A DNA stretch of 64,000 nt from Eledone cirrhosa (GCA_964016885.1 OZ024743.1:260586001-260650000); one strand, 5' to 3'; positions 20,418 through 38,180 are shown, counted from the first letter of the stretch. Translations and numbers: made by a program. Notes: generated by a model not told the origin, from the sequence alone.

Positions 20418-20553
20418 ACCTGTTGAGAAAGTGAATCCTCTGTTCGAACTTCCAAAACCAATAACTTGCATGCCCCGCAAGTGGATTTTGTTGATTTCGG
20501 ATTCACAGAAACCTAGCGGAGATATTGCATAATATCGACGCGATGGTCCAGGT
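20418..20553 (+). ncRNA. Variant hammerhead (UUGAGAA core) with extended stems II and III
   Basis: ACCTG-TTGAGAA-aGTGAATCC...GGATTCACa-GAAA-CC...(GCG/CGC, GATATT/AATATC)...GG-TC-CAGGT. Confidence 0.78.
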
Positions 20554-20888
20554 TTGTCAAATTATCCTGAGTCAGTTTTCTCGTTGCTTGGTCCCTGCGG
20601 CTGGCTTACCGGTCGCAATCTTCAATTTGCAAAGCTGTGTAAACGTAATGTTATTACTCTAAGGTAAAATACCTTATTGAGTGCTTAACTGCACATTCCG
20701 ATTGCATTCGTTAGCTTAGCTGCAGCCAGAGCTTCGATTATGCTGTACTTCCATTTGTATATATATATATATATATATATATATATAAATATATATATAT
20801 ATATATATATATATATATATATATAAATATATATATATATATATATATATATATTCATTTAATTACATAATAAATAACACAATATAAT

Positions 20889-20962
20889 TATTCCATTACC
20901 AAAGGTTTCAGGAAACTAGACGATCCTTACAAAAACGTCCAGCTCGTTCATCAGATAAAATA
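20889..20962 (-). ncRNA. Canonical type I hammerhead ribozyme
   Basis: Minus strand: TATTTTAT-CTGATGA-ACGAGCTGGACG...CGTCTAGTTTCCT-GAAA-CCtttGG-TA-ATGGAATA. Confidence 0.8.
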
Positions 20963-21150
20963 GTCATGTTTTTTATATAAGATTTGAAATTAATATCTTT
21001 TTAAAATGAAAGAGAGTTAAACACACACACAGACACACACACACATATATATATATAGAGAGAGAGAGAGAAAATTGAGGTTGGTAATGGCACATGGAAT
21101 ATATAAGAGACAGAATACTTTTTTGTGAAAAAACATATAATTTTATAATC

Positions 21151-21198
21151 AACATTTGAAAAGATGGCTTTTGCAGACCCATCGAAACCGGTCATTTT
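21151..21198 (+). ncRNA. Minimal variant hammerhead (UUGAAAA core) between inverted arms 21067-21143 / 21229-21305
   Basis: AACAT-TTGAAAA-GATGG...CCATC-GAAA-CCGG-TC-ATTTT. Confidence 0.68.
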
Positions 21199-21340
21199 TT
21201 ATACCCTTTATTATTTCCTTACCTTATGAAATTATATGTTTTTTCACAAAAAAGTATTCTGTCTCTTATATATTCCATGTGCCATTACCAACCTCAATTT
21301 TCTCTATAACCTTCGTTTTGTGTAGTAAATTACACTTTTC

Positions 21341-21827
21341 ATATATATATATATCTATATATATATATATATATATATATATATATATACATATATATAT
21401 ATATATATATATATATATATATATATATATATATATATATATATATATATATATATATATATATATATATATATATATATATATATATATATATATATAT
21501 ATATATATATATATATATATATATATATATATATATATATATATATATATATATATATATATATATATATATATATATATATATATATATATATATATAT
21601 ATATATATAAAAGAATATATATATATATATATATATATATATATATATATATATATATGTATATATATATATATATATATATATATATATATATATATAT
21701 ATATATATACATATATATATATATATATATATATATATATATATATGTATATATATATATATATGTATATATATATATATATATATATATATATATATAT
21801 ATATATATATACATATATATATATATA
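21341..21827. repeat. (TA)n microsatellite
   Basis: Direct reading. Confidence 0.97.
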
Positions 21828-22125
21828 TCTGGAGTGTGTCCAGAAATTGTATACCTGTGCACAAATATGTATCTGGAGTGTGTCCAGATTGTAAGGCCTT
21901 GCCGTATTGGAATACCTGGGCACAAATATGTATCTGGAGTGTGTCCAGAAATTGTATACCTGTGCACAAATTGTACACTTGTGCACAAACTGTACACATG
22001 TATCTGGAGTGTGTCCAGAAATTGTATACCTGTGTACAAATATGTATCTGGAGTGTGTCCAGATTGCACGTACTGCAAGGGGAATTCATTAGGCTTTGCC
22101 GTATTGGAATACCTGTGCACAAAAA
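21828..22125. repeat. ~44-bp minisatellite (ATGTATCTGGAGTGTGTCCAGAAATTGTATACCTGTGCACAAAT) in the Penelope-like UTR, also at 23780-24220 and 36830-37530
   Basis: Direct reading of tandem variant units. Confidence 0.85.
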
Positions 22126-22324
22126 TGTATGTGCCCATCAGTATGCAATGCATGTGTGCGTTTATGTATGTGTGTGTGTCGGCACGTTTATATCTATAGA
22201 CATCAAAAGGTATGCAAATTTGTGTATATTTGTGTTGCACCATAGAACATGTGTGTTTACGTATGTCATTGTGTTTATATGTGGGTAGAGATGTGTGCTG
22301 ATGTAGGTATGTATGTTGACGTGT

Positions 22325-34581: not shown

Positions 34582-34954
34582 AATTCCATATATGGTCAAA
34601 GAGATAATCACCAGGATTGGTCACATCACAAGTTAGTAGTAAATCTGTGATGGCAAGTTGGTGGGGGAAGGGGTAGCTAAACCTGCCAGTAGTAGAAAAA
34701 GGGGAGAGCAGGTGGAGTAGACCCATTCATGCGTTGGTAGTGCCAGCTACAGTGTGGTCAAAGAGGATACTGGGGAGGGGGAGGGGAGGAGGTCGAAACG
34801 GTAAGTAGAACAATGAAAGGTAAAACTGTAAAAGGTACTGAGAGAGAAAAAAAAAATTATAAGCAAAATCTGGTTACTAAGACTTAAGTCTCTCGCTATT
34901 GCTAGGCTGATGTGACCAATCCTGGTGATTATCTCTTTGACCATATATGGAATT

Positions 34955-35049
34955 ACCCCTTGATAAGTTCGGCTATTTAAATACCAGAATTAACTTTTCA
35001 TTCAGTACAGAATTAGCCGTCGAAACGGCTTGAGCTCAGCCGTCGGGGT
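34955..35049 (+). ncRNA. Variant hammerhead (UUGAUAA core)
   Basis: ACCCC-TTGATAA-GttCGGCTA...TAGCCGtC-GAAA-CGGC ttgagctca GCCG-TC-GGGGT. Confidence 0.8.
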
Positions 35050-35270
35050 CTTACTTGTTCCTATTACCCACTTTACTACCCTAAGTATTGAGTACTTTGG
35101 TACGTTATGGTCCACCTGGTTCCTTACTACATTTCCTTCGTTATATATATATATATATATATTTGAATTTTGACCGCCAAATACCAGGGGTTACCTCACT
35201 TTGGGAAAACCATGTGACCACCAGCAGTGTTTACTGCTAAAATTCACTACCCGCGCGGCTGAGAATGGAT

Positions 35271-35406
35271 ACCTGTTGAGAAAGTGAATCCTCTGTTCGA
35301 ACTTCCAAAACCAATAACTTGCATGCCCCGCGAGTGGATTTTGTTGATTTCGGATTCACAGAAACCTAGCGGAGATATTGCATAATATCGACACGATGGT
35401 CCAGGT
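35271..35406 (+). ncRNA. Variant hammerhead (UUGAGAA), duplicate of 20418-20553
   Basis: Near-identical sequence. Confidence 0.75.
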
Positions 35407-35665
35407 TTGTCAAATTATCCTGAGTCAGTTTTCTCGTTGCTTGGTCCCTGCGGCTGGCTTACCGGTCGCAATCTTCAATTTGCAAAGCTGTGTAAACGTA
35501 ATGTTATTACTCTAAGGTAAAATACCTTATTGAGTGCTTAACTGCACATTCCGATTGCATTCGTTAGCTTAGCTGCAGCCAGAGCTTCGATTATGCTGTA
35601 CTTCCATTTGTATATATATATATATATATATTCATTTAATTACATAATAAATAACACAATATAAT

Positions 35666-35739
35666 TATTCCATTACCAAAGGTTTCAGGAAACTAGACGA
35701 TCCTTACAAAAACGTCCAGCTCGTTCATCAGATAAAATA
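35666..35739 (-). ncRNA. Canonical hammerhead, duplicate of 20889-20962
   Basis: Identical sequence. Confidence 0.8.
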
Positions 35740-35924
35740 GTCATGTTTTTTATATAAGATTTGAAATTAATATCTTTTTAAAATGAAAGAGAGTTAAACA
35801 CACACACACACACACACACACACACACACACACACACACACACACACACACACACACACACACACACACGCACAGACATATATATATATATATATATAAA
35901 AGTATAGAGGTGTAACACACAAGT

Positions 35925-38180
35925 TATATATTGGTAAACGGAATAGAAAATGCTGACAAATTGTTCACAGTAAAAGATAGTTTAATTAGGAATAAGTGAG
36001 AATTAGTAATTGTATTGGTTAGTATTCAGTTTTGGTTTTAAGTTTTACCGGTTGCGCATTTTTAATGCTTTTCAAAAATTATTTTGAGATAGAGCGTCCG
36101 TGATGTTTGCTCTGATCTGATTAGTTTTGGGAATTCTACCTGTTTTTATGTTAAAAAAGTGGCTCCAGCGGTATTAAAATAAGTTTTGCGCCAATTCGTG
36201 TTGCAAAAATTCTTGTGGTCAAAATAATTTTGATTGGTCGGTAGAGGTCATGTGAATGTAAAAAATTGATTTTGCGCCAAATGTAGGTTTGTGTCAGCTG
36301 ACTGAGAAATGACTCTTTCACAACAAATATGTGTGTGTGTGTGTGTAGTAGTAGTAGTAAAGTGTTCGTTGTTGTGATAATGGTCAGCAGGGATGTGTGT
36401 GCGAACCGCAGCTTGTTGACAGTTCAAATGCCTATTAAGACAAGTGTGTGTTTGTGTGTGTGTGTGTGTAGCAGAGTAATTCGTGGTAGAGGGATGGTCA
36501 GTAGGAATGTGTCTGTAAGTGAGTGGGGGATATTTTACCATGTTAAAAGATATTTTTCAGCTCTTGTCTTATACGGAGAAGTGTGTGTGTGTGAGTGTGT
36601 ATATATGTCTCTTTGTATGTTAATGTACGCGTGTGTATGTGTGTGTGTGTGAGAGAATGTGTGTGTGTGGGGGGGGGACCAGTATTTTTTTCCTGGTAAA
36701 ATGGTGTACATTATTCGATATTTTCAGTAAAATCGATTCTCTCAATAGAACATCAAAAACCTTAATAATAAAAGGTGTGAAATGATATATAGTATTGGCA
36801 TAATACCAAGGTGTGTGTGAGTGTCTGTGTGTATCCAGATTGTACGTACTGAAAGGGGGATCCCTTAGGCCTTGCCGTATTGGAATACCTGTGCACAAAT
36901 ATGTATCTGGAGTGTGTTCAGAAATTGTATACCTGTGCACAAATTGTACACCTGTGCACAAACTGTACACATGTATCTGGAGTGTGTCCAGAAATTGTAG
37001 ACCTGTGCACAAATATGTATCTGGAGTGTGTCCAGATTGCACGTACTGCAAGATATTTTTCAGCTCTTGTCTTATACGGAGAAGTGTGTGTGTATATGTC
37101 TCTTTGTATGATAATGTACGCGTGTGTATGTGTGTGTGTGTGAGAATGTGTGTGTGGGTGGGTGGACCAGTATTTTTTTTCCTGGTAAAATGGTGTACAT
37201 TATTCGATATTTTCAGTAAAATCGAATCTCTCAATAGAACATCAAAAACCTTAATAATAAAAGGTGTGAAATGATATATAGTATTGGCATAATACCAAGG
37301 TGTGTGTGAGTGTGTGCACAAACTGTACACATGTATCTGGAGTGTGTCCAGAAATTGTATACCTGTGCACAAATTGTACACTTGTGCACAAACTGTACAC
37401 ATGTATCTGGAGTGTGTCCAGAAATTGTATACCTGTGTACAAATATGTATCTGGAGTGTGTCCAGATTGCACGTACTGCAAGGGGAATTCATTAGGCTTT
37501 GCCGTATTGGAATACCTGTGCACAAATATGTATGTGCCCATCAGTGTGCAATGCATGTGTGGGTTTATGTATGTGTGTGTGTCGGCACGTTTATATCTAT
37601 AGACATCAAAAGGTATGCAAATTTGTGTATATTTGTGTTGCACCATAGAACATGCGTGTTTACGTATGTCATTGTGTTTATATGTGGGTAGAGATTTGTG
37701 CTGATGTAGGTATGTATATTGACGTGTGTATGTTGTGGGTTCGTCTTAGGGAGAAGTGTTTAGACGGGGTCTGTATTTGTTAATAAAGTAAGATTCCTTG
37801 CTGATGCGCTGGGTGTGGGCGGCATTATCTTTAAATTTGTAGAGGGGAAAGATTCTGAAGTTGGGATGATTTTGGGCGTCACAGGTATCAATGTGTTCAC
37901 TCAGTGGTATTTTCCTGTATTCCCGTATTTTAATTTGGGATCTATGGACAGTCATGCGTTGGCGGAGGCTGTTTTTGGTCTGGTATATGTATTGTTCTCG
38001 ACAACCTGAGCAAATTAATACATATATTAGATTTTCCGATGCACATGTGAAATTGTGTTTTACTATAAAACGTTGTCCTTCTTTGAAATAGAATTCCGAA
38101 CCCTCTATTAGGTTGATGCAAATGCCACAGTTGGGTCTATCGCACTTTTTTACTGTGGGTTTCGTTGTTGTGGTTGGCAG
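35925..38180 (-). mobile_element. Penelope-like element 3' part (GIY-YIG at 37746-38180 plus long 3' UTR), same family as 21828-25252
   Basis: KKCDRPNCGIC...LIYVLICSGCREQYIYQT...YRPRLN. The UTR matches 23663-25252. Confidence 0.88.

What the first reader, a model, noticed from the sequence alone, without database searches (positions are those of the whole stretch)
20418..36078. A radiation of hammerhead ribozymes with a covaried core (UUGANAA: U3-A8 instead of C3-G8) across several unrelated repeat families
Seen: at least five families with otherwise unrelated sequence fold as type I hammerheads (stem I - 7-nt core - stem II - GAAA - stem III - NUH - stem I') but read TTGANAA. The cases are TTGAGAA (20423, 35276), TTGAAAA (21156, ~29002-29008 minus, 25106), TTGACAA (25313 plus 3 repeats) and TTGATAA (34960 plus mirror). 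Positions 3 and 8 change together while position 7 takes all four bases. Established: C3-G8 is a Watson-Crick tertiary pair in the active hammerhead, N7 is variable, U3-A8 is known as an uncommon tolerated variant, and Penelope-like elements carry HHRs. Inference: in this lineage U3-A8 is a major selected class that searches requiring CUGANGA would miss.
Basis: partly seen in the sequence, partly recalled or inferred. Interest (0 to 1): 0.9.

Follow-up and report, generated by a model that had tools for sequence, protein, structure and literature searches.

The report
Penelope hammerheads with a drifting core
These are real hammerhead-ribozyme folds in the repeats of Penelope-like jumping genes, mostly with a core variant (U3-A8) that is already published; the new point is that one element family spread to at least 515 copies while its core pair was mismatched (C3·A8), so efficient self-cutting is likely not required for these elements to jump.

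Summary
The folds are real. Nine of the 12 cited U3-A8 sites pass a type I hammerhead descriptor, and 0 of 25 shuffled windows give a hit as good. 29008(-) is a decayed copy, 21156 has a weak stem I, and 25106 reads GCAA instead of GAAA. The sites form three lineages, not five unrelated ones: Penelope pseudo-LTRs (D, B/F) and ~600-bp non-coding retrozyme-like repeats (A, C). U3-A8 in Penelope hammerheads was published in 2014, and this scan noted it before in another genome. Here it makes up 12 of 68 motifs in 1.15 Mb of sampled genome.

Strict 3/8 covariation fails. Family D has 3,231 U-A, 515 C·A, 34 U·G and 6 C-G copies. The C·A and U·G copies form true subfamilies, and C·A copies flank RT-endonuclease genes. 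An ORF tree gives the ladder U·G, U-A, C·A, U-A while the rest of the ribozyme stays conserved. A 21-unit retrozyme array is uniformly U·G.

Best reading: a slow, likely protein-assisted ribozyme whose fold is selected but whose 3/8 pair is loosely constrained. Cleavage is untested. Interest 0.5.

The parts
20418..20553 (+). Family A type I hammerhead, U3-A8 (TTGAGAA at 20423), A·A mismatch at 10.1/11.1, 78-nt helix II arm, predicted cut after 20548
20310..20757 (+). Family A repeat body: 5'-truncated ~600-bp non-coding unit, fixed 3' end at (TA)n; no linked ORF shown
35271..35406 (+). Second family A hammerhead, part of a local duplication of 19399-21020; predicted cut after 35401
21151..21198 (+). 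Family B minimal hammerhead (TTGAAAA at 21156, palindromic helix III, weak stem I); pseudo-LTR of a PLE
   Evidence: 1 sequence, 11, 27, 31
22275..23520 (-). Broken PLE ORF: RT fragment plus GIY-YIG (Pfam PF01541, E 2.9e-5); the element type that carries family F repeats
25103..25138 (+). Family F degenerate minimal hammerhead (TTGAAAA at 25106, GCAA in place of GAAA) in the inverted pseudo-LTR 24581-25249
36043..36078 (-). Second family F degenerate hammerhead
25264..27537 (+). Family C: 3.7 head-to-tail copies of a 615-bp non-coding retrozyme-like unit between (TA)n tracts
25308..25442 (+). Family C hammerhead 1 (TTGACAA at 25313, C·A at 10.1/11.1); predicted cut after 25437
25922..26056 (+). 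Family C hammerhead 2; predicted cut after 26051
26537..26671 (+). Family C hammerhead 3; predicted cut after 26666
27152..27286 (+). Family C hammerhead 4; predicted cut after 27281
28826..30416 (-). 5'-truncated older family D PLE: pseudo-LTR, endonuclease fragment 29423-29746, partial inverted pseudo-LTR (second TTGAAAA at 30378, cut short)
28920..29013 (-). Decayed family D hammerhead (TTGAAAA at 29008, GUU triplet, stem II mismatch)
34487..34581 (-). Family D hammerhead, mirror copy (TTGATAA at 34576); predicted cut at 34492
34955..35049 (+). Family D hammerhead of the youngest subfamily (TTGATAA at 34960); predicted cut after 35044; lies in an inverted pseudo-LTR pair 34466-35141

Best explanation
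These are type I hammerhead folds in the pseudo-LTRs of Penelope-like retroelements and in ~600-bp non-coding tandem repeats, likely acting as slow, protein-assisted self-cutting RNAs that make unit-length or circular templates, with the 3/8 core pair only loosely constrained. Shown: the folds; their place 0.6-1.2 kb downstream of RT-endonuclease ORFs (family D) or in each 615-bp unit (family C); insertion ends at fixed points 3' of the cut site, next to (TA)n; conservation of the helices and the other core bases across seven subfamilies; and amplified subfamilies with U·G, U-A and C·A at 3/8. Inferred: the PLE protein nicks (TA)n DNA and starts reverse transcription at a fixed internal site on RNA that is uncut or re-joined at the ribozyme. 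Occasional cutting and ligation would give circles, which are copied round and round into arrays (family C). Because only a low cutting rate would be needed, a wobble or mismatch at 3/8 can persist for whole amplification waves until a second change restores a pair. This would explain how U3-A8 families arise from C3-G8 ones.
For: Folds beat shuffles. Family D flanks a 477-aa ORF with an RT motif and a GIY-YIG-like end in 5 of 5 paired loci examined; its Atlas look-alikes are RT/HTH/GIY-YIG clusters at 0.96. Whole-genome exact counts are 3,786 total, 515 C·A, 34 U·G and 6 C-G. One old subfamily is 18 of 23 U·G. L268 has C·A ribozymes in both inverted repeats around a 469-codon ORF with one stop. 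In the ORF tree the young U-A clade nests inside C·A with starred support, and monophyly of U3 rows is rejected, AU p=0.0002. Across subfamily majorities, 30 of 31 structural columns not fixed by my search pattern are constant, against 36 of 64 other columns, p=3e-5. Of 153 family D rows, 114 end 10-25 or 81-115 nt 3' of the cut site. Four of four visible family C array ends fall at one unit position, and 18 of 18 aligned units of one array share two private changes, one of them A8G. Published: the Anolis PLE hammerhead cuts only with the PLE protein, and dead mutants still insert in vitro (PMC11167929); PLE hammerheads are slow (PMC4209133).
Against: No cleavage or expression data. Single 3/8 mismatches abolished or strongly cut activity in the tested hammerheads (C3G and G8C in PMC11167929; in PMC9901934 every single and double mutant of this region was low except the G:C swap), so C·A copies may simply be dead. 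Mismatched states are rare across families: 3 of 68 sampled motifs, all explainable as decay or false hits, so selection for a pair does exist. The tree root rests on copy age, since the distant outgroup was uninformative. Uniform arrays could also come from unequal crossover. Pfam gave no hit for the family D ORF.
Confidence: 0.55

Rival explanations
1. Cutting is dispensable. The three-way fold is kept as a binding or reverse-transcription start signal for the PLE protein, and catalytically dead cores (C·A in family D, GCAA in family F) spread just as well.
For: 515 C·A copies. Family F amplified with GCAA in 33 of 33 rows and flanks PLE ORFs. Insertions run past the cut site. Dead hammerhead mutants still insert in vitro (PMC11167929). 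Naiad PLEs thrive without canonical hammerheads (PMC8557442).
Against: Single-stranded catalytic bases (U4, G5, A6, A9, GAAA, UH) are constant in 10 of 10 columns across subfamilies, 4 of them fixed by my pattern. Across families 65 of 68 motifs keep a Watson-Crick 3/8 pair. The lineage returned from C·A to U-A.
Confidence: 0.25
2. The C·A core is active because it pairs in a shifted register: C3 with G7, with no spacer base, and the spare A read as the extra base 9a known from PLE hammerheads. A variant idea is that A-to-I editing of A8 restores a C-I pair.
For: 96 of the first 100 listed C·A copies have G at position 7, and G7 first appears at about the same step as C3. An extra base between positions 9 and 10.1 is typical of PLE hammerheads (PMC4209133).
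Against: It rests on one evolutionary event. I found nothing on tolerance of a missing N7. Editing should leave many C-G retrocopies, but there are only 6 among 521 (1.2%), about the level of neutral decay.
Confidence: 0.1
3. One reading: U3-A8 is a strictly covarying, efficiently cutting class that arose in many unrelated families and is selected as a Watson-Crick pair.
For: 65 of 68 sampled motifs are C-G or U-A. Family A is 34 of 35 U-A. At least 6 U-A families occur in the sample.
Against: Amplified C·A and U·G subfamilies exist. A and C, and 34960 and 29008, are relatives. In one type III hammerhead the U-A swap was low-activity (PMC9901934). Independent origins were not shown.
Confidence: 0.09
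4. The folds are chance patterns in AT-rich repeat DNA.
For: Folding z-scores are modest, Rfam is blank, and TTGANAA itself is near chance level.
Against: 0 of 25 shuffled windows reach score 18; 68 real against 1.8 shuffled hits per 1.15 Mb; the position in pseudo-LTRs is the known one.
Confidence: 0.01

Closest known systems
Hammerheads in pseudo-LTRs of animal Penelope-like elements, including the U3-A8 variant of Schistosoma Cercyon elements (Cervera and de la Pena 2014, PMC4209133)
   Same: Type I topology, pseudo-LTR position, inverted pairs, heterogeneous families, and U3-A8 as a large minority class (~1,300 against ~2,000 there; 12 against 53 in my sample).
   Different: Families A, C and D are not minimal: they have a stable 4-5 bp or longer helix III and 55-78-nt helix II arms, so they could fold as monomers. 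A and C open helix II with a 1x1 mismatch. Amplified C3·A8 and U3·G8 subfamilies are not described in the parts I read.
Non-LTR retrozymes of animals (Cervera and de la Pena 2020, PMC7229834; Li et al. bioRxiv 10.64898/2026.07.22.740005)
   Same: Non-coding head-to-tail repeats with one type I hammerhead per unit, low GC (36%), and a PLE connection.
   Different: The unit is 615 bp against ~300 bp typical and 350-390 bp in mussel. It has a U3-A8 core, near-identical arrays of 20 or more units with a fixed 3' end, and one array uniformly U·G. Circular RNA is not shown here.
Natural U3-A8 hammerheads (Perreault et al. 2011, PMC3088659)
   Same: The same compensatory core change.
   Different: There it is a rare variant; mismatched cores in repeats were mostly set aside as cryptic mutants, whereas here they are the state of whole subfamilies.
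Anolis Poseidon PAc hammerhead (Frangieh et al. 2024, PMC11167929; author name recalled)
   Same: PLE hammerhead near the internal start of reverse transcription, insertion at AT-rich DNA, two 3' ends ('tail').
   Different: PAc has C3-G8 and engineered mutants; this genome offers natural U·G, U-A, C·A and C-G versions in one near-identical scaffold.

Membership tests
Type I hammerhead ribozyme | Three helices round the core, with the ends in helix I | tested here: met
   Met for A, C and D by descriptor and minimum-energy fold. Weak for B, poor for F.
Type I hammerhead ribozyme | Core U4 G5 A6 A9 G12 A13 A14, pair A15.1-U16.1, H17 | tested here: met
   Met in A, B, C, D and the 29008 copy.
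Type I hammerhead ribozyme (family F, 25106) | G12 A13 A14 A15.1 | tested here: not met
   GCAA in 33 of 33 rows; not filed as a member.
Type I hammerhead ribozyme | Watson-Crick pair between positions 3 and 8 | tested here: inconclusive
   U-A in all window copies; absent in 549 of 3,786 family D copies and in one family C array. The pairing itself is a tertiary contact that I could not observe.
Type I hammerhead ribozyme | Match to Rfam hammerhead models | tested here: not met
   No hammerhead among 131 matches at E up to 10; expected with the changed core and long inserts.
Type I hammerhead ribozyme | Self-cleavage 3' of H17 | not testable with these tools
   No RNA holder was listed; needs a bench assay.
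Type I hammerhead ribozyme | Loop I-loop II tertiary contact | not tested
   Not modelled.
Endonuclease-positive Penelope-like element (families D, B, F) | One ORF with RT followed by GIY-YIG | tested here: met
   D: 477-aa ORF with RT motif and Atlas clusters RT/HTH/GIY-YIG at 0.96, though no Pfam hit. F and B type: Pfam GIY-YIG and tblastn linkage.
Endonuclease-positive Penelope-like element | Direct or inverted pseudo-LTRs holding the hammerhead, 5' truncation, optional tail, (TA)n targets | tested here: met
Endonuclease-positive Penelope-like element | Clade (Penelope/Poseidon, Neptune, Nematis) | not tested
   No reference tree was built; a cysteine-rich linker is visible in both ORF types.
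Non-LTR retrozyme (families C, A) | Non-coding tandem units, each with a type I hammerhead | tested here: met
   C: 615-bp units, 1,227 exact core matches, no PLE ORF in L306. A: only partial tandems seen.
Non-LTR retrozyme | Expressed as circular RNA | not testable with these tools
   No RNA holder listed; contigs only.

The most novel reading that the evidence does not exclude
One Penelope lineage records a ribozyme's catalytic base pair evolving one base at a time (U·G, U-A, C·A, U-A), with the mismatched C3·A8 core still working in its natural setting, through help from the element's protein or a shifted C3-G7 register, well enough to drive at least two amplification waves of more than 500 copies.
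Probability: 0.3. Interest if true: 0.75.

Novelty: new variant of a known kind. Interest (0 to 1): 0.5.

Why it matters
The U3-A8 class itself is known. What matters is that the role of hammerheads in Penelope-like elements is still open, and this genome supplies a natural allelic series (U·G, U-A, C·A, C-G) in one ~100-nt scaffold, each tied to a dated amplification wave. Measuring four RNAs with and without the element's protein would show whether cutting is needed, and how a compensatory change crosses a predicted fitness valley in a catalytic core. In practice, CUGANGA-only and Rfam searches miss about a fifth of this genome's hammerheads (roughly 30,000 by extrapolating 12 per 1.15 Mb), including a young 615-bp retrozyme-like family.

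Tried and rejected
Rfam scan: no hammerhead match. Pfam on the family D ORF: blank twice.

Rooting the family D tree with three distant PLE ORFs gave a long-branch join and an unresolved root. The pseudo-LTR tree was noisy from truncations.

A PLE ORF beside family A in L054/L305 is separated by a (TA)n tract and was not counted as linkage.

A-to-I editing of A8 as the source of C-G copies: no excess, 6 of 521. The idea that U·G copies are all decay was rejected for the old subfamily (18 of 23) but holds for four young TTGAGGA copies nested in the young U-A clade.

Expression: no RNA holder listed. Contigs of four other runs hold family C relatives, with no listed change in the core (40 of 45 differences shown, and two runs barely cover the core). 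Family D was not checked in other organisms.

Four key papers could not be read and may bear on novelty and on mismatch activity: Lünse et al. on PLE hammerhead variants (PMC5785218), Przybilski and Hammann on 3/8 exchanges (PMC1986816), Nelson and Uhlenbeck (PMC2271363), and Martick and Scott (PMC4447102). Supplements of PMC4209133 and of the bioRxiv preprint were not seen.
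Full report
Observation. I scanned both strands of the window with a type I hammerhead descriptor that leaves positions 3, 7 and 8 free. It recovered eight U3-A8 sites with scores 21-28 (20423, 35276, four in 25313-27157, 34960, 34576 minus) and two ordinary C3-G8 sites outside the finding (2513 and 11819, both minus). Twenty-five shuffled windows gave 12 hits, best score 16. 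The minimum-energy fold is the hammerhead for 20423, 25313 and 34960. 21156 is a minimal motif with a weak stem I. 25106 and 36075(-) have GCAA for GAAA in 33 of 33 rows examined (rows chosen by similarity to this copy). Rfam sees none of them.

What carries them. The genome has 3.0 Gb in 1,796 contigs. Its karyotype and repeat make-up recall an octopus; that is recollection and untested. Family D (34960, 34576, 29008) is the pseudo-LTR of a Penelope-like element. In 5 of 5 paired loci examined, outward-facing ribozymes flank an ORF of up to 477 aa, and its Atlas look-alikes carry RT, HTH and GIY-YIG families at 0.96; Pfam itself was blank. Families B and F lie downstream of another PLE ORF type, which is also present broken at 22275-23520. 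Family C is a 615-bp non-coding tandem repeat with 1,227 exact core matches genome-wide. Family A is small (35 exact matches, 34 of them U-A), older, and probably a relative of C: both have a 78-nt helix II arm and a mismatch at 10.1/11.1, they match 14/15 around GAAA, and an intermediate copy turned up in the sample (L320). The two A copies belong to one local duplication. So the window holds three lineages, not five.

How common is U3-A8. I took 115 stretches of 10 kb at round coordinates, weighted to the large chromosomes (1.15 Mb). At score 16 or more there were 68 motifs: 53 C-G, 12 U-A in 8 stretches and 5 families, and 3 others (one G·G, one C·C, one U·G beside a microsatellite). Shuffles gave 1.8 per replicate. 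The U-A share is 12 of 65 paired cores, 95% interval 10-30% and wider given clustering. Across families, then, positions 3 and 8 do go together, and U3-A8 is a real minority class.

Covariation fails inside family D. Exact whole-genome counts of one 19-nt context gave 3,786 matches with Y3 and R8: 515 C·A, 34 U·G, 6 C-G, and so 3,231 U-A by subtraction. C·A copies are not decay. They form two subfamilies with their own diagnostic flanks, 22 of 39 rows held still pass the descriptor at 20 or more, and L268 has C·A in both inverted repeats around a 469-codon ORF with one stop. An old subfamily is U·G in 18 of 23 copies when positions 3, 7 and 8 are left free. Median divergence from each subfamily's majority falls from 7.3% (U·G) through 6.4% and 3.2% (old U-A) and 2.7% and 3.6% (C·A) to 0-0.9% (young U-A) (some loci are held twice). 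An ORF tree of 35 rows, rooted on the oldest subfamily, is a ladder in the same order, with the young U-A clade nested inside C·A (starred branches). Forcing all U3 rows together is rejected, AU p=0.0002. The root rests on copy age, because distant outgroups failed. The two C-G rows in that tree form a weak pair near the base of the C·A grade; the rest look like singletons. The rest of the ribozyme is conserved: 43 of 45 structural columns are constant across seven subfamily majorities against 36 of 64 others, or 30 of 31 after removing columns fixed by my pattern, p=3e-5.

Family C points the same way. Among the first 100 listed matches, 85 are U-A and 15 are U·G, all 15 in one array. That array has 21 matching units, all U·G, and the 18 aligned units share one more private change. 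Four of four visible array ends fall at the same unit position, three of them read directly into (TA)n. This is what copying round one RNA circle from a fixed start would give; unequal crossover is not excluded. The predicted circle folds better than shuffles (-140 against -121±7 kcal/mol). Relatives occur in contigs of four other runs.

Mechanism. Of 153 family D rows, 114 end 10-25 or 81-115 nt 3' of the predicted cut, so the template RNA was uncut or re-joined there. This fits the Anolis PLE, where reverse transcription starts internally, the hammerhead cuts only with the element's protein, single 3/8 mutants are dead, and dead mutants still insert in vitro (PMC11167929; passages and the second half of the main text). 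I therefore favour a slow, likely protein-assisted ribozyme. Its fold and most core bases are selected, and it needs so little activity that wobble or mismatch states can ride whole amplification waves (0.55). Rivals: cutting is dispensable and the fold is a protein signal (0.25; family F supports this); a shifted C3-G7 register or editing rescues C·A (0.10; 96 of 100 listed C·A copies have G7, but there is no excess of C-G copies); strict covariation (0.09); chance (0.01).

Comparison with what is known. Cervera and de la Pena 2014 (PMC4209133; parts 1-2 of 4 read) already report U3-A8 in Schistosoma PLE hammerheads, ~1,300 hits beside ~2,000. Perreault 2011 (PMC3088659; section 8 and passages) reports natural U3-A8. 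In a type III hammerhead only the G:C swap rescued this pair (PMC9901934; passages). Animal retrozymes are ~300 bp, 350-390 bp in mussel (PMC7229834; passages), and are argued to derive from PLEs (bioRxiv 10.64898/2026.07.22.740005; part 1 of 5 and passages). PMC8557442 (passages) notes that hammerhead function in PLEs is unclear. PMC6765202 and PMC7151607 (passages) added background only. I found no report of amplified C3·A8 or U3·G8 subfamilies in searches. Four relevant papers could not be read, above all Lünse et al. on PLE hammerhead variants, so novelty of the mismatch states is not secure. This scan noted a U3-A8 PLE hammerhead in another genome before.

Verdict. The headline (U3-A8 class) is known. 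The natural mismatch series and the 615-bp retrozyme-like arrays are a new variant that makes an open question directly testable. Interest 0.5.

Noticed in passing
window 2513 (-) and 11819 (-): Two ordinary C3-G8 hammerheads outside the finding. The 11819 family shares with A and C the mismatch at 10.1/11.1 followed by a G-C pair; this opening is common in the genome sample.
   Followed up: partly
G000:C1:119.98-120.00 Mb (L347, L348): Family C array of about 16 kb in which all 21 matching units carry U3·G8 plus one other private change.
   Followed up: yes
window 24581-25249, 35932-36580; L285, L286: Young PLE family F spread with GCAA in place of GAAA; a related minimal family with intact GAAA occurs at L146 and L331.
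   Followed up: partly
L095, L109, L322; L309; L323, L324, L333: Three more U3-A8 families with GUC sites that are not in the window, found in the genome sample.
   Followed up: no
window 19399-21020 and 33573-35797: Local duplication; the family D inverted pair 34466-35141 sits in a (TA)n tract of the second copy only.
   Followed up: partly
window 8284-9519 (+), 17022-18101 (-): Further PLE ORF remnants, about 40% identical to the family D protein; inverted repeat 7973-8297/10809-11133 around the first.
   Followed up: partly
window 41615-50694, 53231-56332, 57367-58623: Non-LTR retrotransposon ORFs (one group with a restriction-like nuclease end, one with an AP-endonuclease-like start) and a hAT-like transposase remnant; labels by eye and recall.
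   Followed up: no
window 6067-6263, 27930-28096, 28462-28673, 32623-32817, 40946-41523: A dispersed ~190-bp SINE-like repeat in many copies.
   Followed up: no
window 33479-33513: Short (TTAGGG)n tract at an internal site.
   Followed up: no
window 53-1388: Perfect 620-bp inverted repeat with a 96-bp spacer, followed by a truncated family D pseudo-LTR at 1436-1571.
   Followed up: no
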